The notes beneath the pieces were generated by a model, which ran no database searches, was not told the DNA's origin, and saw nothing but the letters and a program-made list of their open reading frames with translations. A DNA stretch of 41,188 nt from Candidatus Sericytochromatia bacterium (GTDB lineage Bacteria; Cyanobacteriota; Sericytochromatia; JACMPN01). Every line of letters begins with the position of its first letter. The stretch's first letter is position 1. Location of the stretch: contig JACMPN010000146.1 of assembly GCA_014377495.1 (NCBI GenBank), forward strand, positions 1 to 41,188, given 5' to 3'. The position numbers were made by a program, and so were the translations under genes. Shown piece by piece: positions 27 through 30,232 of this stretch.

Positions 27-353
27 GTGAGCAGCGCCCCGGCCTTGGGCGCGAGTGCACCCCACTCCGTCAGTCAGCAGACCTTCAAAACTGAAAATTG
101 GCGGGGGGGCTACGGCGGCTATGGCGGCTATGGCGGCTACGGCGGCTATGGCGGCTATGGCGGCTACGGCGGCTATGGCGGCTACGGCGGCTATGGCGGC
201 TACGGCGGTTACGGGCGCTTCGGCTTCGGTGGCATCTCTCCGTTCAGCTACGGCGGCCTCGGCTATGGCGGGCTCGGCTACGGCGGGCTCGGCTATGGCG
301 GCCTCTATTCACCCTGGCAATACAGTGGCCTCAGCTACGGTGGCTTCTGGTAG
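27..353 (+). CDS. Glycine/tyrosine-rich low-complexity repeat protein (possibly 5'-truncated by the window edge)
   Basis: ORF-track frame 27..353 encodes (GGY)x~12, then (GGLGY)x4, ending SYGGFW. The frame stays open back to nt 3, so the true start may lie upstream. Third positions are G/C-rich in this frame. The TAG at 351-353 is followed about 11 nt later by a perfect 18-bp hairpin. The two alternative open frames (55..477, 98..403) run into or through that hairpin. Confidence 0.55.
   Translation: MSSAPALGASAPHSVSQQTFKTENWRGGYGGYGGYGGYGGYGGYGGYGGYGGYGGYGGYGGYGRFGFGGISPFSYGGLGYGGLGYGGLGYGGLYSPWQYSGLSYGGFW
105..214. repeat. Tandem 9-bp repeat ggc-ggc-ta(c/t), about 12 copies, encoding (GGY)n
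   Basis: Direct reading: ggctacggc/ggctatggc units repeat head to tail. The tac/tat alternation gives a partial higher-order 27-bp periodicity. Confidence 0.9.
251..306. repeat. Tandem 15-bp repeat encoding (GGLGY)x~4
   Basis: Direct reading: ggcggcctcggctat / ggcgggctcggctac units follow one another. Confidence 0.8.
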
Positions 354-18347: not shown

Positions 18348-19268
18348 TTAAGTGCCCGTCACCACGGGCGTCGTCGGATCGTTGCCCCACTCCGCCCAGG
18401 AGCCGGCGTAGTTCTTGACGTTGGGATACCCGAGCAGGCGTAACACCCAGTAGGTGACGGCCGCCCGTGAGCCGCTCTGGCAATGGCTGATGACGGTCCG
18501 GTCCGGCGTGACGCCTTTGCGTAAATACAGAGTCCGCAACCGCTCCGGGTCTCCGAGGCGGGGCCCGTCAAAGTTCGTCTGCCAGTCGATGTTCACTGCC
18601 CCGGGCATGTGGCCCCCTCGGGCGGCCCGCACGTCGGAGCCGGCATGTTCGGCAGCACTGCGGGTATCGACCACCACGCTGTGGGGATCGCCGAGGGCGA
18701 CGATGCAGCCGGCCATCGTCTGCAAACGGCCCAGTTCCACCTTCGTCTGGAAGGGGCTGGCCCCGATCCTGGTCGGGACGGTCGTCATCCCACCCGCCAC
18801 GGATTGCCAGCCTTGCAGGCCACCGTCCAGGACAGCGACCTGGCTGCGTCCGAGCAGCTCCAACGTCCAGAACAAACGGGGGGCTGCCGTATCGCCACCT
18901 TTGTCATAGAGGATGACCCGTTTGTGCGTGCCGATCCCACTCGCACTGACCACTGCCGTCAGCCGGGCCACGGTGGTCGCTGCCGTCTCGGTGGGATCGG
19001 TCAACAACTGCGTCAGGGGCAGGCTGATCGCCCTCGGGATATGCCCCTGGGCATAGGCCTCGGCACTGCGGGCATCGACAACGATCAGGTCTGGCGACGA
19101 CAGGTGCGTCTTGAGCCAGGCAGCGGACACGACGAGGTCGGGTTGCGCAAAGCCGGGTGTGGCGGCAGTGGCTGCCAGCACGGGCACGGTCATGCCCAAT
19201 ATCACCGTCAGCCCGGAGGCCACAATCAGCCCGCCGCACCGGCGGGTCACATGCCGCTTCGTCATCAT
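18348..19268 (-). CDS. Tandem-rhodanese sulfurtransferase (thiosulfate/3-mercaptopyruvate type), probably exported
   Basis: Two rhodanese modules. Catalytic loop CQSGSRAA is in the C-terminal module. The N-terminus has an RR-containing signal-like sequence (TRRCGGLIVASGL...AATAA). Confidence 0.88.
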   Translation of the reverse strand: MMTKRHVTRRCGGLIVASGLTVILGMTVPVLAATAATPGFAQPDLVVSAAWLKTHLSSPDLIVVDARSAEAYAQGHIPRAISLPLTQLLTDPTETAATTVARLTAVVSASGIGTHKRVILYDKGGDTAAPRLFWTLELLGRSQVAVLDGGLQGWQSVAGGMTTVPTRIGASPFQTKVELGRLQTMAGCIVALGDPHSVVVDTRSAAEHAGSDVRAARGGHMPGAVNIDWQTNFDGPRLGDPERLRTLYLRKGVTPDRTVISHCQSGSRAAVTYWVLRLLGYPNVKNYAGSWAEWGNDPTTPVVTGT

Positions 19269-19746: not shown

Positions 19747-21357
19747 CTAAAGCTGGGCGGTTGCCGCTTCAATGATCCGCCAACCGGTCTGTCCGCCGGC
19801 TTTGTCCTCCAACACGATACCGATGGCCTGCAGCCGGTCCCGGATGGCGTCGGACATGGCGAAGTCCTTGTTGGCCCGTGCCTCCTGACGCAGGGCAATC
19901 AGGACCTGTACGGCCGCATCCGTCAGATCACTGGCTGTCGACTCCTCGGTGGGCCGCCAAGTCGTCACGTTGCCCGGCTTGTCTTCGAGGACGAGTTGCC
20001 CGGCGGCCAGCTTGTCCCGGATCACGTCGGACAGGGCAAAATTCTTGGCCGCCCTGGCCTCTTTGCGCAAGGCGATCAGCACGTCCATGATCGGTCTCAG
20101 GGCGTCATCGCCACCGGTGGCCGCTTCGGGCTCCAGCGAGAGTCCGAGGATCCCCGCCAACTCCTGCGTCAGGGCGACGCCCTTTTGGAGCGTCTCGGTC
20201 GGCGCCAGGCGGAACGGATGCAACTGGCGGACCAGCTCGAAGAGCACGGCGACGGCGCCCGGTGTGTCGAAATCATCGTCCATGTGGGTTTCGAACCGGT
20301 GCCGGCTTTCGGCTAATACCTGCTCGATCTTGGCGCCCTGCTCGGCATCCGTCCCGCCGGGAGCCTGGGCGATCTCGGCCATCGAGCGCCGCAGCCGGTT
20401 CCAGCCGGATTTGGCCGCCATCAGGGCGTCGTCAGAAAAATCCACCGGCCGGCGGTAGTGCTTCTGCAGCAGGAAAACGCGTAGGGTATCGACGTCGATC
20501 ATTTTCAGCAGGTCGCCGAGGTTCTTGATGTTGCCGAGACTTTTGGACATTTTCTGGCCATCCGCCGTGACCATGCCGTTGTGCATCCAGTAATGGGCCA
20601 GGGGCGCATGCTGGGCCCCTTCGGATTGGGCGATCTCGTTTTCGTGGTGGGGGAAGATCAGGTCCATACCGCCGGCATGGATGTCGATCGTCGGACCGAG
20701 GGCCGAGGTGACCATTGCCGAGCATTCGATGTGCCAGCCGGGCCGACCGGGGCCCCAGGGCGACTCCCAGCTCTCTTCACCGGGCTTGGCGTGTTTCCAG
20801 AGGGCGAAGTCCAGCGGGTCCCGCTTGATCTCGCCGACCTCGACCCGGGCGCCGGACTGCAGATCGTCGATGTTCCGGCCCGAGAGCTTGCCGTAGCCGG
20901 GGAACTTGCGGACGGCGTAGAAGACGTCCCCGTCAGGGGACGGGTACGCCAGATCCTTGCCGATCAGGACCTCAATAAAGGCGATCATCTCGGCCATGTG
21001 CTCGGTCGCCCGGGGGTACTCCGTGGCCGGCTGGACGCGCAGGGCGATCATGTCCGCCATGTAGCGGTCGACGTAGCGGTTGGCGAGCTCGCGGGGGCTG
21101 ATGCCCTCGTCCCGGGCCTTGTTGATGATCTTGTCGTCGACGTCCGTGAAATTCTGCACGTAGTGGACGTCGTAGCCCCGATAGCCCAGGTAACGCCGGA
21201 CCATGTCCCAGGTGATATAGCAGCGGGCATGGCCCAGGTGGACGTCGCCATACACCGTGACGCCACAGACGTACATCGACACCTTGTTCGGCTCCAGGGG
21301 GGTAAAGTCCTCGACCTGTCGGTTCAATGTGTTGTAGACGCGCACGGGTTTCCTCAT
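19747..21357 (-). CDS. cysS: Cysteine--tRNA ligase with a duplicated C-terminal module
   Basis: HIGH (HLGHARCY) and KMSKS (KMSKSLGN) motifs and zinc-site Cys residues. Start is at MRKPVRVYNT (residue 24 of the track ORF). Confidence 0.97.
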   Translation of the reverse strand: MRKPVRVYNTLNRQVEDFTPLEPNKVSMYVCGVTVYGDVHLGHARCYITWDMVRRYLGYRGYDVHYVQNFTDVDDKIINKARDEGISPRELANRYVDRYMADMIALRVQPATEYPRATEHMAEMIAFIEVLIGKDLAYPSPDGDVFYAVRKFPGYGKLSGRNIDDLQSGARVEVGEIKRDPLDFALWKHAKPGEESWESPWGPGRPGWHIECSAMVTSALGPTIDIHAGGMDLIFPHHENEIAQSEGAQHAPLAHYWMHNGMVTADGQKMSKSLGNIKNLGDLLKMIDVDTLRVFLLQKHYRRPVDFSDDALMAAKSGWNRLRRSMAEIAQAPGGTDAEQGAKIEQVLAESRHRFETHMDDDFDTPGAVAVLFELVRQLHPFRLAPTETLQKGVALTQELAGILGLSLEPEAATGGDDALRPIMDVLIALRKEARAAKNFALSDVIRDKLAAGQLVLEDKPGNVTTWRPTEESTASDLTDAAVQVLIALRQEARANKDFAMSDAIRDRLQAIGIVLEDKAGGQTGWRIIEAATAQL

Positions 21358-21422: not shown

Positions 21423-22661
21423 TCACTCCGTGCGCAGGGCTTCGATGGGGCTCAGCTTGCTGGCCCGATAGGCCGGGTAATAGCCAAAGAAGATGCCGAT
21501 GGCGACGGAGATGCCCGAGGCCATGAGGATGCCCGTCCAGTCGATCGGCAGCGAAAAGGCCAGATCCGGCATGACCGCATGGATGATCAGGGTGCCCAGG
21601 GAACTGATCCCCAGACCGACGGCAATGCCGATGACCCCGCCGCAGACACTGAGGACGACGGCCTCGCAGAGGAACTGGCCGAGGATATCCCGTCGACGGG
21701 CCCCGATGGCCTTGCGCAGCCCAATCTCCTTCGTGCGTTCGGTGACACTGACGAGCATGATGTTCATGATCCCGATGCCGCCGACCAACAGGCTGATGGC
21801 AGCCACCGAACTGATCACCGCCGCCATGACGCCAGTGATCGAGTTGAACATGCTGACCAGGGACTCCAGCGCCTGCATGCGGTAGTTGCCCCGGCCGGCG
21901 TGCCGGAGCTTGAGGAAGCTGATCAGCTTGTCGGAGACGTCGTTCTTGACCGAAAGGTCGTTCACCTGGGCGCCGAGGGAATCGATGAATTGGGTTTCGC
22001 CGTCGATCATCATCGCCACGGTGTAGGGCATGATCAGCCTGCCGCCGTCCTCGCCCATCATGGCGACGAGCCCCTTGGGCGTTTTGACGAGACCGACGAT
22101 CGTCAGGTAGTTCGCCCCGAAGGTGAGTTCCTTGCCGAGGACAGACTCACCGGTGTCGAACAGCTGGTCGCGGAGAGTCTCGTCGATGACACAGACCATG
22201 CTGCGGGCCAGGGCGTCGTCCTCACTCAGATACCGGCCTACCAACACCTGGGTGTTGTTCAGGATCCGGGCGGCCTCGCCCTCGTTGCCCTGGGCCTCGA
22301 CGTTGCTGCCTTCCTTGTCTTGGAAGCGGACCTTGTGCTCGTCACGGCTGAAGTAGGTGAATGGGGTAACGTTCCGCAACTGGGGGAAGTGCTCCCGCAC
22401 GGCGACGATATCCTCGAGGGAGATGCGCGTGGTGATCCCCTGGGTGTGATCGTCCCGCCAGTTGCGCTGGATGCTGATCCCGTCGAGGGCGCCGTATTTG
22501 AGGATTTCCTGCGAAATCATCGCCCGACCGCCGCCGCCGACCGCCATAACGGTGATCACGGCAGAGACGCCGATGACCAGGCCAAGCATGGTCAGGGCCG
22601 CCCGAAACGTGTTGGCGAGCAGGGCCCGGACCGCCAGACGTAATAGTTGCCAGACATCCAT
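21423..22661 (-). CDS. MacB/DevC-type ABC transporter permease (FtsX domain with large periplasmic domain)
   Basis: N-terminal TM, a periplasmic domain of about 220 aa, and a C-terminal 3-TM FtsX module (ERTKEIGLRKAIGARRRDI). Confidence 0.9.
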   Translation of the reverse strand: MDVWQLLRLAVRALLANTFRAALTMLGLVIGVSAVITVMAVGGGGRAMISQEILKYGALDGISIQRNWRDDHTQGITTRISLEDIVAVREHFPQLRNVTPFTYFSRDEHKVRFQDKEGSNVEAQGNEGEAARILNNTQVLVGRYLSEDDALARSMVCVIDETLRDQLFDTGESVLGKELTFGANYLTIVGLVKTPKGLVAMMGEDGGRLIMPYTVAMMIDGETQFIDSLGAQVNDLSVKNDVSDKLISFLKLRHAGRGNYRMQALESLVSMFNSITGVMAAVISSVAAISLLVGGIGIMNIMLVSVTERTKEIGLRKAIGARRRDILGQFLCEAVVLSVCGGVIGIAVGLGISSLGTLIIHAVMPDLAFSLPIDWTGILMASGISVAIGIFFGYYPAYRASKLSPIEALRTE

Positions 22662-22761
22662 GGGTTAGAGGCTCGCATACTTTCGGACGGTGAGCCAAGC
22701 CGACAGGTTGGCGGTGCACTGAGGGGAGGGCAGATCGCCCGGGCGGCCGTCTGGCCATCGA

Positions 22762-22974
22762 TCACGTGGCGGCGGGTTGGAACTCCAACTTGGCGATGTG
22801 ACTGGGATTGATGATCGTCTCCATCTCGCCGGTGACGATGCTGACAGCGTGGCCTTCCAGCATGCCGGTGCGGATCTGGTTCATCATCGCCTCATCGCAG
22901 GTGAACACCCATTCCTGCTGGGTGTGGCCCCAGGTGATCCGGGAGAAAAAGGTTTTGGTGGCCGTCGTGGTCAT
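22762..22974 (-). CDS. Hypothetical 70-aa soluble protein
   Basis: Start at MTTTATK (residue 19 of the track ORF), with GAGGAG 6 nt upstream. It begins 16 nt after the SPASM gene stop. No TM segment or signal peptide. Confidence 0.55.
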   Translation of the reverse strand: MTTTATKTFFSRITWGHTQQEWVFTCDEAMMNQIRTGMLEGHAVSIVTGEMETIINPSHIAKLEFQPAAT

Positions 22975-22990
22975 GGTGGTCTCCTCACTG

Positions 22991-23641
22991 TCAGGGTGTG
23001 GTGCTGGCCGGCGGTGCATAAGGCGCACCCCCGTCCCGAACTGCTATGGCCAGGGCGTGGTCGCCCCGATCCAGCCACGAAACGGCCGGCGACGGGGCAT
23101 CCTTGGCTTCGATGACGCTCTCAAAAATGCCATGGTCAAAGGGAGCGCCGGGTGCGGCGTCCGTGCGGATCATCCGCTCGCGCAAGCCTTGCCGGTCATG
23201 CTCCAGGGCCCGGTGATGGCAGTATGGGTTGTTGCCCCGTTTGCCGTAAAACACGTGGGCCGTCCACGTGCAGCCGCCCCGGCACATTTTCTTGAACTCG
23301 CAGGTGCCGCAGAAGCCCCACAGGTGGGCAATGCTCTCCTCGGAATAGCGGAGAACCTTGTTCATCGGCAGCGGTTCAGTATGGGCCATGATGTCGGCCA
23401 GGCTCATGTCACGGATGTTGGCGCCCGTGTACGGGCCGGAGGGCAGCGAGGGGCAGCCCTTGATCTTGCCGTCGGCCTCGATGCCCAGGGCCTGGGTACC
23501 CGCCTCACAGCCGCTGTAGTAGACGCTGCCTTCGCCGCCGCGACTGAGCAGCAGCTGATCGTAGGGGCCGTAATAGCCGATGTTGTTGCCCGAGGCCATG
23601 CGGGTCCGGGAGATTCTCTGAAACCCGCCCGTGGAGGCCAT
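22991..23641 (-). CDS. Stand-alone SPASM-domain Fe-S protein (no radical-SAM core)
   Basis: Full seven-Cys SPASM pattern: C-x17-C including G-x4-C (SGCEAGTQALGIEADGKIKGC), then C-x2-C-x5-C-x3-C (FCGTCEFKKMCRGGC), then a distal Cys (NPYCHH). There is no CxxxCxxC anywhere in the 216 aa. Only about 29 nt separate it from the HlyD stop. Confidence 0.75.
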   Translation of the reverse strand: MASTGGFQRISRTRMASGNNIGYYGPYDQLLLSRGGEGSVYYSGCEAGTQALGIEADGKIKGCPSLPSGPYTGANIRDMSLADIMAHTEPLPMNKVLRYSEESIAHLWGFCGTCEFKKMCRGGCTWTAHVFYGKRGNNPYCHHRALEHDRQGLRERMIRTDAAPGAPFDHGIFESVIEAKDAPSPAVSWLDRGDHALAIAVRDGGAPYAPPASTTP

Positions 23642-23670
23642 TTTTAGCCAACTGTCGCATCGCCGGGATC

Positions 23671-25035
23671 CTACATGCGAACCTTCGGTCGCTTTGGGTT
23701 TGCCGAAGCATGGCTGCTGGTGTCCGACTCGTTGGGATCGGCGATCTTCAATAGCTTGTCCGCCTCGATCGGCTTGCCCTGACTGGCGACCACCTGATCG
23801 CCCACTCGCAAACCTGCGGTGATCTCGATGAACTGCGGATCGGCAATCCCTGTCTTGATGGTCACCTTTTTGGCGTGGGACCCGGCATCCAGCCGCCAGG
23901 TGTATTTCTTGCCCGCTTCCCCGGCGATGACGGCTTCGAGCGCCAGGGCGGGAACCTGTTTTTTCTCCTGCAGAATGATCTCGGCCCGCACGGTGCTGCC
24001 GGCCTTGATCCGCCTTTCCGGGCGGGTGAGGACCGCTTTGACGACGACGGAGTTATATTCGTTGCGGCGGTTCGTTTTTTCGGCGATCGGCGTGATCAGC
24101 GAGATGATGCCTGTCAGTTTTACGTCCGGCAGGGCCGTCGTCGTCACCAGGACCGGCATCCCCGTGCGGACTTTGACGGCGTCCAGTTCGTTCACTTCCA
24201 CGCTGACGATCTGCCGGGCGTCGTCGGCCAGGTCATAGAGGACTGTCCCCAGGGTCAGCGACTGCCCGGTCAATACTTTCAGGCGGCTGACGAGACCGTC
24301 CTGCGGGGCACGGACGGTCAGCCGGGCCACTTTGGCTTCCAGGTTGCGCACCTTTTCCCCGGCGGCGGCGACCTTGGCTTCCGCCAGTTTCAGGGCGTTT
24401 TCCGCCTGGACGATTTTCAGCTGGGCCGCCCGGACGTCCCCTTCCGCTTTGGCGACCTCGAGGCGGCTTTTGTCCCGTTTGGCTTTGGCGGAATCGAGGT
24501 TGATCCGGCTTTCCGCCTTGGCATCGAAGAGCATCTGCTTCATCGCCAGTTCGCCGTCCGCTTCGGTCAGGCTCAGGCGAGCCTGGGCCACGGCATTGCG
24601 GGCATGAGGCACACCGATCTGCCGGGCATCCTGCAGCTTGTAGCGGGCCTCGACCAAGTCGCTCTTTTCGACCTGCACATAGCTGTCCCGGGCCTCGGTG
24701 ACTTGGCGCATCAGCTCGGGATCGCTCAGGCTGGCCACCGTCTGGCCGGCCTTGACGTGATCGCCCGCCTGCACGTACAGCCGGGTGATGAAGCCGGCGA
24801 CCTCGGCGATGATCGGCCGCTCCGACAGCGGTTCGATGGCCCCGGCGATCCGCAGCGACTCCGCCACATCCCGGGCGGTTACCGTGTAGGCCTGCACCTT
24901 CAGGGGCTGGGCCTGGCGCGGCCAGAAGAACCAGCCGAGTGCCCCGGCGAGCACGACGCCCGCCGCGATCCAGGCTGTGCGCTGGCGCTTCGGCGGTGCC
25001 GGCGGCAGGGGGGACTCGATGCGGTCGGGGGTCAT
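23671..25035 (-). CDS. HlyD/MacA-family periplasmic adaptor (membrane fusion protein)
   Basis: N-terminal anchor, lipoyl/barrel segments and a long Ala/Lys/Glu-rich coiled-coil hairpin. ATGA overlap with the upstream TolC-like gene. Confidence 0.9.
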   Translation of the reverse strand: MTPDRIESPLPPAPPKRQRTAWIAAGVVLAGALGWFFWPRQAQPLKVQAYTVTARDVAESLRIAGAIEPLSERPIIAEVAGFITRLYVQAGDHVKAGQTVASLSDPELMRQVTEARDSYVQVEKSDLVEARYKLQDARQIGVPHARNAVAQARLSLTEADGELAMKQMLFDAKAESRINLDSAKAKRDKSRLEVAKAEGDVRAAQLKIVQAENALKLAEAKVAAAGEKVRNLEAKVARLTVRAPQDGLVSRLKVLTGQSLTLGTVLYDLADDARQIVSVEVNELDAVKVRTGMPVLVTTTALPDVKLTGIISLITPIAEKTNRRNEYNSVVVKAVLTRPERRIKAGSTVRAEIILQEKKQVPALALEAVIAGEAGKKYTWRLDAGSHAKKVTIKTGIADPQFIEITAGLRVGDQVVASQGKPIEADKLLKIADPNESDTSSHASANPKRPKVRM

Positions 25036-26387
25036 GGTTGCTCCTTCGTGGGCGCAGGGGTGGGGGGGAGCGCGCTCGGTTCGGCCAATGGTCGGCCCAC
25101 GGCCTGATAGAGGCGGGCCGCCGCCACGAGGTAATCGATGGTTGCTTCCAGGTTTTCGGTCAAAGCCGAGACCAGGGCCCGCTGCACGTCGTTGACGTCG
25201 GTGATCACCGCCGCCCCCAGCTTGTAGCGCATGGCCATGATGTCCCGGGTGCTCCGAGCGATCTCGATCGAGCGCCGCAGACGGGAGAGCCGGCTGGCGG
25301 CACTCGTCAGTTGGGCGTGGGCCTGATCCACGTCCGTCTTGATCTGCCGTTTTGTCTGGGTCAGATCCAGTTCGGCACTCTCGATCGTCAGGGCCGCTTC
25401 CTGCATGCGCCGCCAGGTCTCGGCATTGTCGAAGAGGTTGTAGGTCATTGTCGCCCGGCCGTCGAAGGTGCCTTCGAAAGCCGCCAGGACGTTGTTCGAG
25501 CTTGCCAAGGGGCGGAACGGGTTGTTGCCGTACTGGTACTGGGCCGTCAGGGCGAACTCCGGAAAGAGCTTGCTGCGGGCGATGGTCAGGCCGGCTTTGC
25601 CGGCGTTCAGGCGGGCATCCGCCGCCTGGACCTCCGGGCGTTGGCGCAGGGCCCGGGCCAGCCAGATCTCCCGCCCCTCGTCGGGGATCGCCTGAAACTG
25701 CGGGTCGTCGCTGAGGGTCCAGGTATCGTCATTGCGGAAGAGCAGATTGCCGAGCCGGGCCCGGGCTACCTGCATGTTGCCCTCGTTGCGGATCAGGCCC
25801 GCCTGGGCACTGATCAGGGTCACCTCGGCCCGGTTCACGTCGATCGGGGCGATGGCGCCCGCCCGCAGCCGGGTCTTGGCCAATGCGTGGATTTCCTCCG
25901 CCTGTTTCACCTGATCCTGGTTGACCAGATAGAGCTTTTGCTGCCGCTGGTTGTCCCAATAGGCCTCAATCACCGACAGGGCCACGTTCTGCCGGGTGGC
26001 GAAGAGGGTGGCTTTCCGTTCGGCGACGCCCTGTTCCGCCCGTTCGATGCTGCCTGTGATCCGCCAGCCGGTGAACAAAGGCACGCGCAACGTGCTGTTG
26101 GCGTTGACGAAGAGGACGTTCTGGTCCTTTTGACTGGCCGTCGTCATCCCGGAGACGGTGTAGTTGTCGCCCCCGTTCAGATCGAGGCTGAGGCTGGCCC
26201 GCTGGAACTGGGCCCGCCAATAGTCGATGTCCGCCTGACGGACCTGCACGTCCTGATTGGCGATGCTCGGGTTGTGGGCCATGGCCTGGCGCAGGGCGTC
26301 GGCCAAAGACATCGGCTCGGCGTGGGCCATGGCCGTCAGCATCAGCCAGACGGCGACGGCAGGGGCCAGGCGGTGGAGACGGATCAT
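25032..26387 (-). CDS. TolC-family outer-membrane efflux protein
   Basis: Signal peptide (MIRLHRLAPAVAVWLMLTAMAHA) followed by two TolC/OEP repeats. Start is at residue 12 of the track ORF, forming an ATGA overlap with the ATPase stop. Confidence 0.88.
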   Translation of the reverse strand: MIRLHRLAPAVAVWLMLTAMAHAEPMSLADALRQAMAHNPSIANQDVQVRQADIDYWRAQFQRASLSLDLNGGDNYTVSGMTTASQKDQNVLFVNANSTLRVPLFTGWRITGSIERAEQGVAERKATLFATRQNVALSVIEAYWDNQRQQKLYLVNQDQVKQAEEIHALAKTRLRAGAIAPIDVNRAEVTLISAQAGLIRNEGNMQVARARLGNLLFRNDDTWTLSDDPQFQAIPDEGREIWLARALRQRPEVQAADARLNAGKAGLTIARSKLFPEFALTAQYQYGNNPFRPLASSNNVLAAFEGTFDGRATMTYNLFDNAETWRRMQEAALTIESAELDLTQTKRQIKTDVDQAHAQLTSAASRLSRLRRSIEIARSTRDIMAMRYKLGAAVITDVNDVQRALVSALTENLEATIDYLVAAARLYQAVGRPLAEPSALPPTPAPTKEQP

Positions 26388-27142
26388 GTCAGCCCCTCGT
26401 GCGGCGGCGGGGTCTTGCACTCGTCGGACAGGATGCGGCCGTCCCGAAACCGGATGATCCGCCGGGCCCAGTCGGCGACTTCCTGCTCATGGGTCACGAG
26501 GACCACGGTCATGCCCTCCTGGTTCAGGTCGCGGAACAGTTGCATGATCTCCAGGCTCGTCGTGCTGTCCAGGGCGCCGGTCGGTTCGTCGGCCAGCAAC
26601 AGGCGTGGGCGGTTCACCAGGGCCCGGGCGATGCTCACCCGTTGCTGTTGGCCGCCGGATAATTGGTTCGGCATGTGCGCCATCCGGTCGCCCAACCCCA
26701 GGCGTTGCAGGGCCGCCGCCGCCCGCACCTGTCGCTCGGCCGGTTTGACCCCCGCGTACAGCATAGGTTGTTCCACATTTTCCAAGGCGGTCGTCCGGGG
26801 CAGCAGGTTAAAAGACTGGAAGACGAAGCCGATGTACCGGTTCCGGATCTGGGCCAGGTCGTCTTCACTGCGGTTGGCCACGTCCAGCCCGGCCAAGCGG
26901 TAAAGACCGGCGTTCGGGGTGTCGAGACAGCCGACCATGTTCAGGAACGTCGACTTGCCGGAGCCGCTGGTCCCCATGATGGCGACGAAATCACCCTCGG
27001 CGATCGCCAGCGAGACATCCTGCAAGGCCCAAACAGGCTGCTCGCCACGGTGGTATACCTTGCTGAGGTGGCTGATCTCAATCAGCGGCGGCATTTCAGG
27101 CGTCATCGCCGGCAGATTAACAGATTTCCGGTTGGTCGGCAT
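26384..27142 (-). CDS. ABC transporter ATP-binding protein (MacB/LolD/DevA type)
   Basis: Walker A GTSGSGKST, Q-loop, signature LSGGQQQRVSIARAL, Walker B LLLADEPTGALD and an H-loop VTHE. aggtg lies about 7 nt before ATG 27142. Confidence 0.95.
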   Translation of the reverse strand: MPTNRKSVNLPAMTPEMPPLIEISHLSKVYHRGEQPVWALQDVSLAIAEGDFVAIMGTSGSGKSTFLNMVGCLDTPNAGLYRLAGLDVANRSEDDLAQIRNRYIGFVFQSFNLLPRTTALENVEQPMLYAGVKPAERQVRAAAALQRLGLGDRMAHMPNQLSGGQQQRVSIARALVNRPRLLLADEPTGALDSTTSLEIMQLFRDLNQEGMTVVLVTHEQEVADWARRIIRFRDGRILSDECKTPPPHEGLT

Positions 27143-28546: not shown

Positions 28547-30232
28547 ATGGTAGACCTGAACCCCCTCACGGGCGGAAGCGAACCGGCACGGTTGGCGGCA
28601 TTGCGTCGGACAGCCCTCCTCGACACGCCGACGGAGGAAGGCTTCGACCGGCTGACCAAGCTGGCGACCCGGGTACTGCATGTGCCTGTTTCCATGGTCA
28701 CTCTGGTCGACGTCGACCGGCAGTTCTTCAAGAGCTGCGTCGGGATACCGGATCCTTGGCTGTCCCGCCGTGAAATCCCCCTGAACTATTCAATTTGCCG
28801 GCATGTTGTCGCCTCCGGGACCCCGCTGATTGTGGACGATGCGGCGCAGGACAGCATGTTCCGCGATCACCCCATCGTCCGGGAGTACGGGGTCTCCAGC
28901 TACGCCGGGATCCCGCTGATCGTAGGCGGCGGGTACGTGATTGGCACGTTCTGCGTGATGGATTTTAAGCCACACCATTGGACGGCGGACGAGATTGCGA
29001 TCCTGCAGGCCCTCGCCGCTTCCGCCATGAGCGAGATCGACCTGCGCATGTTGGTCACGGAGGTGAGTGAGCAGCGGGCTCTGGTCCAGCGCCAAGCCGA
29101 CCGCACGTCGACCTTGCTCGACGCCACCGCCGAAGGCATTATTGGGGTCGACTTGGATGGGCGCTGCACCTTTGTCAACGCTTCGGCCGTGAACGCCCTC
29201 GGCTATGCCCCCGAGGCATTCATCGGTCAATCGATCCATGATCTGAGCCACCACAGCCATGCGGATGGCACACCCTATCCTTTGAGCGGTTGTTCGATCT
29301 GTCAGGCCTATCGGTCCGGCAGGTTGATGCATGCCAGTGACGGGGTGTTTTGGCGGGCGGACGGCTCTTCCTTTCCTGTGGAATGGCGGGCAAATCCGAT
29401 CCGTGAGGACGGGCGGGCCAGCGGCGCCGTCGTCACCTTCCTGGATCTGACGGATCGCCGCAATGCCGAGCGGGCCAAGGCCCGGGTGGTCGAGTTGGAG
29501 GATTCGTTGCGCCTGAAAGACGACTTCCTCGCCATCGCCGCCCATGAGCTGAAGACGCCGATCACTGTCAGTCTGCTGGCCATCGGCCGGCTGCGCCGGG
29601 CCCTCGAACGGGATGCCGCCGGGGCGATTGCGGCCAAGCTGTCGGCGTCGGTGGGCGCAGCCGAACGCTCCGTGCTGCGGATGGCCAAGCTGATCGACAA
29701 CATCCTGGACGTCTCACGGGTCACCCTCGGCGGTTTGCCGTTGCAATGCGACAGTCTGGATCTGGTGACCCTGGTGCGCGAGGTCCTGGCCCACTTTTCC
29801 GACGAGCTGCAGGCCGCCGGCAGTGACTTGACGTTCAGGGCCGGTCCGCCGGTCTGGGGGCGCTGGGACGGTTCCCGACTGGAGCAGGTGATCGCCAATC
29901 TGATCGCCAATGCGATCAAGTTCGGCCAGGGCCGGCGGATCGAGGTCGCCGTCACCGGCAAGGAGCAGTCGGCCATCATCAGCGTGGTGGATCACGGCAT
30001 GGGGATCGCGGACAAGGACCAGCAGCGGATCTTCGACCGCTTCGAGCGGGCCGTGTCCAGCCGGCACTACGGTGGGTTCGGGCTGGGGCTCTGGATTGCC
30101 AAAAAGGTGGTCGAGGCCCATGGCGGCACCATACAGGTGGACAGTCACCGGAAACAGGGGACACGGTTCACCGTGACAATGCCCCGCTTTTGCGTGGTGC
30201 CGGCGGGCAGTCGCCAGTCCGAGGCAGCCTGA
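28547..30232 (+). CDS. Soluble GAF-PAS sensor histidine kinase
   Basis: GAF domain, PAS domain, H-box FLAIAAHELKTPIT, and N/G1/G2 boxes (NLIANAIKF, DHGMGI, GGFGLGLWIAKKVVEAHGG). No TM segment. GGAGG lies 5 nt before the ATG. Confidence 0.9.
   Translation: MVDLNPLTGGSEPARLAALRRTALLDTPTEEGFDRLTKLATRVLHVPVSMVTLVDVDRQFFKSCVGIPDPWLSRREIPLNYSICRHVVASGTPLIVDDAAQDSMFRDHPIVREYGVSSYAGIPLIVGGGYVIGTFCVMDFKPHHWTADEIAILQALAASAMSEIDLRMLVTEVSEQRALVQRQADRTSTLLDATAEGIIGVDLDGRCTFVNASAVNALGYAPEAFIGQSIHDLSHHSHADGTPYPLSGCSICQAYRSGRLMHASDGVFWRADGSSFPVEWRANPIREDGRASGAVVTFLDLTDRRNAERAKARVVELEDSLRLKDDFLAIAAHELKTPITVSLLAIGRLRRALERDAAGAIAAKLSASVGAAERSVLRMAKLIDNILDVSRVTLGGLPLQCDSLDLVTLVREVLAHFSDELQAAGSDLTFRAGPPVWGRWDGSRLEQVIANLIANAIKFGQGRRIEVAVTGKEQSAIISVVDHGMGIADKDQQRIFDRFERAVSSRHYGGFGLGLWIAKKVVEAHGGTIQVDSHRKQGTRFTVTMPRFCVVPAGSRQSEAA

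What the first reader, a model, noticed from the sequence alone, without database searches (positions are those of the whole stretch)
21423..27142. Tripartite MacB/Dev-type exporter operon split by two non-transporter genes
The minus-strand order is ABC ATPase, TolC-like OMP and HlyD adaptor, all chained by ATGA overlaps. Next come a 216-aa SPASM-only Fe-S protein and a 70-aa protein, and only then, after about 100 nt, the FtsX/MacB permease. In MacAB, DevBCA and Lol systems the ATPase and permease are fused or adjacent. Here the transporter's own membrane subunit lies beyond an inserted gene pair. This suggests the pair belongs to the pump as cargo, a cargo-processing module or a redox-sensing module.
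Basis: partly seen in the sequence, partly recalled or inferred. Interest (0 to 1): 0.72.

Follow-up and report, generated by a model that had tools for sequence, protein, structure and literature searches.

The report
Decayed peptide-maturase cassette inside pump operon
Two small genes sit inside an otherwise ordinary four-gene efflux-pump operon; they are what is left of a peptide-modifying (radical SAM "splicease"-type) gene cassette that has lost its substrate gene and the catalytic half of its enzyme, so they are not a built-in pump part.

Summary
The gene order is as described: ABC ATPase, TolC-like OMP and HlyD/MacA adaptor joined by ATGA overlaps, then a 216-aa ORF, a 70-aa ORF, 100 nt, and the MacB_PCD/FtsX permease.

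The 216-aa ORF is not a dedicated SPASM protein. It is the 3' half of a radical SAM/SPASM RiPP maturase gene of the TIGR04103 type (nif11-class maturase 3). All seven SPASM cysteines are present, but the CxxxCxxC motif and the TIM barrel are missing. DNA homology to the orthologue in a related metagenome contig (L091, 81% aa identity, radical SAM core present) starts abruptly at window 23600.

The 70-aa ORF belongs to a tiny unnamed family with only two other members. Each lies directly downstream of such a maturase. In L092, an APMYG-repeat precursor gene lies directly upstream of the maturase. XYG is the published splice motif of spliceotides.

In L091 the maturase, small gene and permease are syntenic. 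In another relative (L094) the four pump genes are contiguous, with the HlyD stop abutting the permease ATG.

So the pair is an accessory, now truncated RiPP cassette nested in a MacB-type pump operon. A role as an integral or redox-sensing pump subunit is not supported.

The parts
26384..27142 (-). ABC ATPase subunit (NBD) of a MacB-type exporter, 252 aa as an ORF. NCBI calls a 233-aa version.
   Evidence: NCBIfam MacB N-terminal half E 1.4e-83; LolD and DevA families also match. Pfam ABC_tran. 81% aa identity to the L094 orthologue.
25032..26387 (-). TolC-family outer-membrane channel, 451 aa. Its start overlaps the ATPase stop (ATGA).
   Evidence: TIGR01844 E 3.5e-44; Pfam OEP x2. Junction sequence read. 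72% aa identity to the L094 orthologue.
23671..25035 (-). Periplasmic adaptor (MFP; MacA/HlyD type), 454 aa. Its start overlaps the OMP stop (ATGA).
   Evidence: TIGR01730 E 1e-40; MacA E 2.6e-21; Pfam HlyD_D23 and HlyD_3. 69% aa identity to the L094 orthologue of the same length.
23601..23670 (-). 70-nt junction segment between the adaptor stop and the point where maturase homology begins. Its origin is unknown. It contains the first ATG (23641) of the 216-aa ORF, with no recognisable Shine-Dalgarno.
   Evidence: No DNA similarity to the L091 maturase gene upstream of window 23600. Sequence read.
22991..23641 (-). 5'-truncated radical SAM/SPASM RiPP maturase gene (splicease-type, TIGR04103-like). 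Only the SPASM/C-terminal half is kept. True homology spans 23600-~23063. The second in-frame ATG at 23599 is the start used for the near-identical 202-aa copy P0001 (99% aa identity; 2 aa differences).
   Evidence: TIGR04103 positions 216-387/412, E 6.6e-72. Aligns to residues 222-376 of the full-length 377-aa homologue P0088. All 7 SPASM Cys are present; CxxxCxxC and the barrel are absent. The N-terminal half is absent from the whole window. The breakpoint at 23600 is sharp.
22762..22974 (-). 70-aa small protein with no family name, conserved partner of this maturase clade. It occupies the position of the splicease 'Y' accessory gene and has a strong RBS.
   Evidence: Only homologues are P0130 (62% identity, L091) and P0131 (34%, L092), both directly downstream of the maturase. 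No Pfam or NCBIfam hit. AF2 model pLDDT 78: hairpin-helix-3 strands.
22662..22761 (-). 100-nt spacer before the permease. No convincing promoter, terminator or known RNA.
   Evidence: Promoter and terminator scan is at the chance level. Folding z-score -0.12. No Rfam match.
21423..22661 (-). MacB-type permease (TMD): periplasmic MacB_PCD plus a C-terminal FtsX domain, 412 aa.
   Evidence: NCBIfam MacB C-terminal part E 8.7e-64; Pfam MacB_PCD and FtsX. Orthologues at 69-80% identity.
19747..21345 (-). cysS, the conserved downstream neighbour. It anchors synteny with L091 and L094.
   Evidence: tblastn 72-78% identity; collinear order pump-cysS-miniIII-PBP2-minCDE-rodA-cox in L094.

Best explanation
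The region is a conserved four-gene MacB-type tripartite efflux operon: separate NBD, TolC-like channel, MacA/HlyD adaptor and MacB_PCD/FtsX permease. In this lineage it carries, between the adaptor and permease genes, the remnant of a spliceotide-type RiPP cassette.

The intact cassette, seen in relatives, has three parts:
- a precursor gene with repeated xAPMYGx (XYG) sites;
- a radical SAM/SPASM maturase ('X');
- a small 70-86-aa partner gene in the 'Y' position.

In the window, a deletion with its right-hand breakpoint at 23600/23601 removed the precursor gene (inferred) and about 200 codons of the maturase (shown). The lost codons carry the CxxxCxxC SAM-cluster motif and the TIM barrel. 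What remains is an open SPASM-only ORF and the small partner gene.

The pump genes are intact and presumably work as a normal MacAB-TolC-like exporter. The permease is probably expressed by read-through across the remnant (inferred; no terminator found). The remnant cannot perform radical SAM chemistry and is most likely a young pseudogene (inferred).

In the intact ancestor, the nested position would have given the peptide products co-expression with a ready exporter. That makes it a cargo-making module, not a pump subunit (inferred).
For: Domain identity of all six ORFs.

Truncation:
- The 216-aa ORF matches only positions 216-387 of TIGR04103 and residues ~222-376 of full-length homologues.
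- The N-terminal half is absent from the 41-kb window.
- The L091 orthologue (81% aa identity) carries the radical SAM core up to the contig edge.
- DNA homology window/L091 starts abruptly at 23600 with a 29-nt identical run.
- There is no Shine-Dalgarno at either candidate start.

Cassette nature:
- L092 has a 256-aa precursor with 7 APMYGMP repeats, then a 417-aa full-length maturase (TIGR04103, 615 bits), then the 86-aa homologue of the 70-aa ORF.
- L001 (69% identity) has a 134-aa precursor with 3 IAPMYG repeats upstream of a full-length but frameshifted maturase.
- YG-repeat ORFs lie next to related maturases in further loci.
- XYG is the published splice site of radical SAM spliceases, which work with a small Y protein (PMC11414181; PMC11626197; PMC11002830).

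Accessory status:
- The L094/L095 pump operon is contiguous, and 15 flanking genes are collinear with the window.
- No MacB, HlyD or TolC homologues lie near about 40 other related maturases.

The deletion is real: L002, from an independent sample, has the same junction. Both SNPs inside the remnant are nonsynonymous, while the three in the 70-aa and permease genes are synonymous.
Against: - The remnant ORF is fully open over 216 codons and keeps all seven SPASM cysteines.
- Its dN/dS against L091 is the lowest of the genes compared: 0.15, against 0.36 for the permease and 0.19 for cysS. The truncation is therefore either recent or the fragment is still under selection.
- What lies upstream of the maturase in L091 is unknown, because the contig starts inside the gene. 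The presence of a precursor gene in the window's ancestor is inferred from L092 and L001 only.
- The direction of change is unresolved. By cysS, L091 and L094 are closer to each other (91% aa) than either is to the window (83%, 78%). Presence in window + L091 and absence in L094 therefore needs a gain plus a clean loss, or lateral exchange.
- The assignment as a 'splicease' rests on family similarity below the curated cut-off and on neighbouring XYG precursors. No characterised splicease sequence was available for direct comparison.
Confidence: 0.72

Rival explanations
1. The SPASM-only protein and the 70-aa protein are retained, functional accessories of the pump. Possible roles are an Fe-S redox sensor or a peptide-binding module that gates or loads the MacB permease.
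For: - Intact ORF with all 7 SPASM Cys.
- dN/dS 0.15 against L091.
- The arrangement is fixed in two independent samples.
- Strong RBS on the 70-aa gene.
- The pair lies next to the permease in L091 as well.
- No terminator or promoter signal separates it from the pump genes.
Against: - The L091 orthologue carries the radical SAM core that the window copy lacks (its first ~37 codons lie off the contig), and the window copy begins at a sharp deletion breakpoint.
- There is no RBS at its possible starts.
- A pump operon without the pair exists in a close relative.
- The pair occurs without any pump in L092.
- Both within-species SNPs in the remnant change amino acids.
- Other SPASM-only forms in the databases have different breakpoints (reference positions 150, 209, 219) and are scattered in the tree. 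They are independent decay products found because the query was the C-terminal half.
- The match to the only curated stand-alone SPASM family (TIGR04304) is 26 bits against a cut-off of 300.
Confidence: 0.1
2. The maturase is a split enzyme. The radical SAM half and the precursor are encoded elsewhere in the genome, and the SPASM half here complements them in trans.
For: The open, conserved SPASM half. Only 41 kb of the genome is visible.
Against: - No N-terminal half or XYG-repeat precursor related to L001/L092 is found in the window.
- The breakpoint falls inside the domain linker region with unrelated sequence upstream. It is not at a gene-like start with translation signals.
- No naturally split member was seen. 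L001's two ORFs are a single frameshifted gene, overlapping and collinear.
Confidence: 0.06
3. The cassette was never complete here. A fragment (half maturase + small gene) was inserted directly into a contiguous pump operon by illegitimate recombination. L091 acquired a full copy independently.
For: The contiguous operon in L094 shows an empty site. The species relationships (window as the outlier by cysS) do not fit one simple gain.
Against: - The window and L091 share the same right-hand arrangement: small gene, then 67-100 nt, then the permease ATG.
- They share 81% and 62% identity in the two genes, in line with their housekeeping genes.
- Two independent insertions at the same site are less parsimonious than one insertion followed by a deletion.
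Confidence: 0.1

Closest known systems
Spliceotide (tyramine-splicing) RiPP clusters: precursor A with XYG sites, radical SAM/SPASM splicease X (PlpX, PcpX, RhaX, RcsX) and small activator Y (PlpY) (PMC11414181, PMC11626197, PMC11002830)
   Same: - The best family match of the 216-aa ORF and its orthologues is the Nif11-class rSAM/SPASM maturase 3 model.
- Relatives L092 and L001 have precursors with repeated APMYG (XYG) sites directly upstream.
- A small ORF lies directly downstream of the maturase, in the Y position.
- Cyanobacterial relatives sit beside Nif11 precursors and C39-ABC/HlyD exporters.
   Different: - The window copy lacks the catalytic radical SAM half and the precursor.
- Even the full-length relatives score below the curated cut-off (615 against 725 bits).
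- The 70-aa partner shows no detectable similarity to the small Y-position ORFs of the cyanobacterial loci (hhalign probability 0.1%).
- Its model is not PqqD/RRE-like.
- Precursors are long multi-repeat proteins without a detected Nif11 leader.
- The nearby exporter is a MacB-type tripartite pump, not a C39 peptidase-ABC transporter.
MacAB-TolC / DevBCA-TolC type VII ABC tripartite efflux pumps
   Same: The NBD, the MacB_PCD + FtsX permease, the MacA/HlyD-type adaptor and the TolC-family channel are all encoded in one operon.
   Different: - NBD and permease are separate genes (fused in E. coli MacB). They are separated by the OMP and adaptor genes even in the unsplit relative.
- In the window the operon additionally carries the RiPP remnant between the adaptor and the permease.
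Stand-alone SPASM / pseudo-radical-SAM proteins (GeoRSP SPASM protein TIGR04304; pseudo-SAM/SPASM TIGR04347)
   Same: A protein with SPASM cysteines but no working radical SAM site.
   Different: Matches are weak: 26 and 23 bits against cut-offs of 300 and 525. The window ORF is demonstrably a recent truncation of a full-length enzyme, not a member of a conserved stand-alone family.

Membership tests
MacB-type (type VII ABC) tripartite efflux pump | Permease with a large periplasmic MacB_PCD domain and a C-terminal FtsX four-helix domain | tested here: met
   Pfam MacB_PCD E 6.4e-30 and FtsX E 2.4e-21. NCBIfam MacB residues 257-648, E 8.7e-64.
MacB-type (type VII ABC) tripartite efflux pump | Cognate MacB/LolD/DevA-class ATPase, membrane-fusion adaptor and TolC-family channel | tested here: met
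   ATPase matches MacB residues 1-226, E 1.4e-83. Adaptor matches TIGR01730 and MacA. OMP matches TIGR01844/OEP.
MacB-type (type VII ABC) tripartite efflux pump | NBD fused to the permease in one polypeptide (E. coli MacB architecture) | tested here: not met
   Separate genes at 26384-27142 and 21423-22661. They are also separate in L094. This is the DevCA/LolCDE-like split form.
Radical SAM/SPASM peptide maturase, TIGR04103 (nif11-class maturase 3; splicease type) | N-terminal CxxxCxxC [4Fe-4S]/SAM site and TIM-barrel core | tested here: not met
   Absent from the ORF and from the whole window. Present in L092 (CNLACSHC). The L091 orthologue carries the core from position 38 onward.
Radical SAM/SPASM peptide maturase, TIGR04103 (nif11-class maturase 3; splicease type) | SPASM auxiliary-cluster cysteines (7 Cys) | tested here: met
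   All seven columns are conserved in the window ORF. TIGR04085 E 2.2e-11.
Radical SAM/SPASM peptide maturase, TIGR04103 (nif11-class maturase 3; splicease type) | Whole-protein score at or above the curated cut-off (725 bits) | tested here: not met
   Window 242 bits. L091 partial copy 531 bits. L092 full-length copy 615 bits. This is a sister clade rather than an equivalog.
Spliceotide cluster | Adjacent precursor gene with XYG splice sites | tested here: not met
   None is found next to the remnant or related to the L001/L092 precursors anywhere in the window. Precursors are present in L092 (7 APMYG) and L001 (3 APMYG). A GYG-rich ORF at 27-353 is 22 kb away and was not followed up.
Spliceotide cluster | Tyramine excision (-135.06 Da) at XYG by the maturase | not testable with these tools
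   This needs expression and mass spectrometry. No characterised splicease sequence could be obtained for direct comparison.
Splicease Y activator (PlpY/PcpY; distant PqqD/RRE similarity) | Small gene immediately downstream of the X gene | tested here: met
   Window: 16-nt gap. L091: ATGA overlap. L092: 17-nt gap.
Splicease Y activator (PlpY/PcpY; distant PqqD/RRE similarity) | Sequence or fold similarity to known Y proteins or PqqD-type RREs | tested here: not met
   hhalign against the cyanobacterial Y-position ORFs gives probability 0.1%. There is no Pfam or NCBIfam hit. The best PDB fold match is Rv3208A (TM 0.53-0.58, E 0.04), with no RRE match. The model rests on only 3 sequences (pLDDT 78).
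Stand-alone SPASM-domain protein families (TIGR04304 GeoRSP_SPASM) | Score above the family cut-off; conserved stand-alone architecture in relatives | tested here: not met
   26 bits against a cut-off of 300. The closest relatives are full-length. Short forms elsewhere have varied breakpoints and are polyphyletic.

The most novel reading that the evidence does not exclude
The SPASM-only half-enzyme and its 70-aa partner are not dead. After losing the radical SAM core, they were kept under purifying selection as an Fe-S/peptide-binding accessory co-expressed with the MacB pump. More broadly, this clade (APMYG-repeat precursor + maturase + a new 70-86-aa partner family) would be a previously undescribed spliceotide subtype that uses a host MacB-TolC pump as its exporter.
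Probability: 0.12. Interest if true: 0.6.

Novelty: new variant of a known kind. Interest (0 to 1): 0.3.

Why it matters
For genome annotation, a "SPASM domain-containing protein" wedged in a transporter operon should not be read as a new Fe-S pump subunit. Here it is a truncated RiPP maturase. The database search with its C-terminal half returned many other N-terminally shortened forms; the three checked on long contigs (L004, L007, L088) also lack the radical SAM half.

For natural-product mining, the relatives are the useful leads. L092 has an 8-site APMYG-repeat precursor. L091 has a maturase with its radical SAM core, nested in a MacB pump operon. Together they point to a splicease-like clade with an unrecognised small partner protein, and possibly to MacB-type export. 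The window itself holds only the wreck of that system.

Tried and rejected
- Exact look-up of the 216-aa ORF: not on record.
- Word-index search with the 70-aa ORF: found only itself. The exhaustive HMMER scan was needed. Its hits P0132 and P0133 are long repeat proteins matched on short stretches and were treated as spurious.
- Genome-collection scan with the permease: only relatives at 38% identity or less, so no taxonomic placement was obtained.
- Metagenome scan with the 70-aa alignment: nothing.
- Metagenome scan with the L091 maturase: 36 loci at 24-57% identity, none with the 70-aa family or a MacB pump.
- Hypothesis that SPASM-only forms are a conserved stand-alone family, because several database proteins start near 'GNNIGYYGP': rejected. 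tblastn breakpoints differ (150, 209, 219), the forms are scattered in an NJ tree, some are contig-edge fragments, and the query itself biases recovery to C-terminal halves.
- Search for the missing N-terminal half and for Nif11 or APMYG precursors in the window: none.
- Promoter and terminator scan: at the chance level.
- RNA folding of both junctions: not better than shuffles.
- Rfam: no match.
- PDB sequence search with the 70-aa profile: only chance lectin matches.
- Attempts to get PlpX, PlpY or RcsX sequences from paper supplements for a direct comparison: not held.
- The mapping of TIGR04103 to the InterPro entry cited for PlpX (IPR026482) could not be verified in the library. It is from memory only.

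Full report

| Gene | Coordinates | Size |
|---|---|---|
| ABC ATPase | 26384-27142 | 252 aa |
| TolC-family channel | 25032-26387 | 451 aa |
| MacA/HlyD-type adaptor | 23671-25035 | 454 aa |
| 216-aa ORF | 22991-23641 | 216 aa |
| 70-aa ORF | 22762-22974 | 70 aa |
| spacer | 22662-22761 | 100 nt |
| MacB_PCD + FtsX permease | 21423-22661 | 412 aa |
| cysS | follows the permease | |

Family assignments come from NCBIfam and Pfam. The two ATGA overlaps are read directly from the sequence. An independent 2.1-kb assembly from another sequencing run (L002) has the same adaptor-216-70-permease junctions with only five SNPs. The arrangement is therefore real, not a misassembly.

**What the 216-aa ORF is.**
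- It matches only positions 216-387 of the 412-position model TIGR04103, 'nif11-class peptide radical SAM maturase 3' (E 6.6e-72; 242 bits against a cut-off of 725). It also matches the corresponding part of TIGR03913.
- Against full-length 377-aa homologues that begin with the CxxxCxxC motif (for example P0088), it aligns to residues ~222-376.
- A multiple alignment shows all seven SPASM-region cysteines conserved, but nothing corresponding to the first ~220 residues, which hold the radical SAM cluster motif and the TIM barrel.
- tblastn with five longer homologues (two of them full-length) finds no N-terminal half anywhere in the 41-kb window.

**The orthologue in L091.** A related organism is represented by contig L091 (cysS 78-83%, permease 69% aa identity). 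There the orthologous gene (81% identity over the shared part) extends upstream through the radical SAM core to the contig edge. It matches TIGR04103 positions 38-388 at 531 bits. At the DNA level, window/L091 similarity starts abruptly at window 23600 with a 29-nt identical run (CATGGCCTCGGGCAACAAC...). The 70 nt between there and the adaptor stop are unrelated. Neither possible start codon (23641 or 23599) has a Shine-Dalgarno, whereas the 70-aa gene has GAGGAG. This is the signature of a 5' deletion, not of a purpose-built SPASM protein.

**What the 70-aa ORF is.**
- It has no Pfam or NCBIfam family, and the word-index search found no homologue.
- An exhaustive HMMER scan of 1.84 billion representatives found two credible relatives: P0130 (71 aa, 62% identity) and P0131 (86 aa, 34%).
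- Both lie immediately downstream of the same kind of maturase. In L091 the order is maturase, ATGA overlap, 71 aa, 67 nt, MacB permease. In L092 the order is a 417-aa full-length maturase (TIGR04103, 615 bits), 17 nt, then the 86-aa gene.
- The pair is therefore a conserved two-gene unit.
- An AlphaFold2 model from the three sequences (pLDDT 78) gives a hairpin-helix-three-strand fold. Its best PDB neighbour is Rv3208A (TM 0.53-0.58, E 0.04), not a PqqD-type recognition element.
- A profile comparison with the small ORFs that follow the cyanobacterial homologues (L003, L004, L088; a family with PLLPRSAWNSQLAYLK) shows no relationship.

**What the cassette is.** Directly upstream of the maturase in L092 is a 256-aa protein with seven repeats of [FLP]APMYGMP. 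L001, whose maturase is 69% identical to the window ORF and full-length apart from one frameshift, has a 134-aa protein with three IAPMYG repeats in the same position. YG-repeat ORFs also flank related maturases in several metagenome loci.

Published work shows that radical SAM/SPASM 'spliceases' (PlpX, PcpX, RhaX, RcsX) excise a tyramine unit at XYG motifs, including MYG, in Nif11/NHLP-type or other precursors. The first cyanobacterial systems also need a small 'Y' protein that activates the enzyme (PMC11414181; PMC11626197; PMC11002830; PMC10849128).

The window pair is therefore best read as the X and Y-position genes of a spliceotide-like cassette. Two points remain unproven. The enzyme family score is below the curated cut-off. 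No characterised splicease sequence could be obtained for a direct comparison. The window has no precursor gene related to those of L001 or L092.

**Relation to the pump.** The permease has five orthologues at 69-80% identity. For one of them (P0135; loci L094/L095 from two samples), the operon is ATPase (235 aa), OMP (441), adaptor (454) and permease (412). It has overlapping or abutting junctions (adaptor stop TAG directly followed by the permease ATG), and cysS follows. Fifteen genes around it are collinear with the window.

This gives three conclusions:
- The pump operon exists without the pair.
- The ATPase and permease are non-adjacent even in the unsplit form.
- The pair also exists without a pump. 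L092 has none, and none of ~40 loci with related maturases has MacB-permease, HlyD or TolC homologues, only generic ABC ATPases.

The cassette is thus an accessory element nested in the operon in the window and L091 lineages.

**Direction of change.** This is not settled. By cysS, L091 and L094 are closest to each other (91% aa; dS 0.34), and the window is the outlier. Presence in window + L091 with absence in L094 therefore implies either an old insertion with a clean loss in L094, or lateral exchange of the insert through the flanking homology.

**Is the remnant dead?**

For decay:
- the deletion breakpoint;
- loss of the catalytic half and of the precursor;
- no translation signals;
- both within-species SNPs in it are nonsynonymous, while the three in the neighbouring genes are synonymous (numbers too small for significance).

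Against decay:
- the ORF is open;
- all cluster ligands are kept;
- dN/dS against L091 is 0.15, lower than for the permease (0.36) or cysS (0.19).

A recent deletion reconciles these. It would be older than the 0.24% divergence from L002 but young relative to the dS of 0.83 from L091. Continued selection is not excluded.

Several database proteins start close to 'GNNIGYYGP', so I tested whether SPASM-only forms are a recurrent functional architecture. On long contigs the homology boundaries differ: position 150 in L004, 209 in L088, 219 in L007. These forms are scattered in a tree among full-length sequences. The search itself could only recover C-terminal halves. They are better explained as independent decay of a frequently lost cassette.

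**Transcription.** The promoter and terminator scan is at chance level. The junction RNAs fold no better than shuffles. There is no Rfam match. Nothing argues against read-through from the pump promoter, and nothing demonstrates it.

**Verdict.** The two genes are a genuine unit with a cargo-making ancestry, and they recur next to the orthologous permease in one relative. They are not an integral, conserved or redox-sensing part of the pump, and in this genome the enzyme is truncated and its substrate gene is gone. The pump itself is an ordinary split-gene MacB-type tripartite exporter.

The most useful by-products are the intact relatives (L092, L091). They define a splicease-like clade with multi-repeat APMYG precursors and an unnamed small partner family.

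Noticed in passing
window 27-353 (+), at the contig edge: Gly/Tyr-rich low-complexity ORF: 12 consecutive GYG units, then four GLGYG units. It is formally XYG-rich, like splicease substrates, but lies 22 kb from the maturase remnant and probably runs off the contig start.
   Followed up: partly
window 19747-19933 (cysS 3' end, minus strand): The cysS ORF is ~60 aa longer at the C-terminus than the L094 orthologue. By eye the last ~45-aa segment (VLIALR.EARA.K.FA.SD.IRD.L...G..LEDK.G..T.WR) occurs twice in tandem.
   Followed up: no
window 18348-19268 and 28547-30232: Relative to the otherwise collinear L094, the window has an extra rhodanese-like gene. It also has a 561-aa sensor histidine kinase (no domain scan run) where L094 has two unrelated genes. 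These are further small indels in a conserved core region.
   Followed up: no
L004 5905-6726; L088 2848-3483; L007 6010-6609: N-terminally truncated splicease-type maturase ORFs on long contigs of unrelated organisms. Two of them directly abut Nif11-type precursor genes and are followed by a conserved small ORF. This suggests frequent decay of these cassettes.
   Followed up: partly
P0109 (225 aa, database protein): An internal-deletion form: the N-terminal CxxxCxxC segment (21 aa) is joined directly to the SPASM half, skipping the TIM barrel.
   Followed up: no
L092 1791-2561; L119 5648-6763: Very long multi-core candidate precursors: 256 aa with 7 APMYGMP sites in L092, and a 372-aa ORF with ~10 alternating [AP]KYGVP sites next to a related maturase in L119.
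   Followed up: partly
window 22920-22935 (70-aa ORF residues 13-17) and homologues: The 70-aa family has a conserved aromatic-Gly at the predicted hairpin turn. It is WG in the window and P0130, but VYG (a formal XYG site) in P0131.
   Followed up: no
L091 1372-1392: A perfect 8-bp GC-rich hairpin (CCTGCGGC/GCCGCAGG) sits between the 71-aa gene and the permease in L091. It has no T-run and no counterpart in the window spacer.
   Followed up: no
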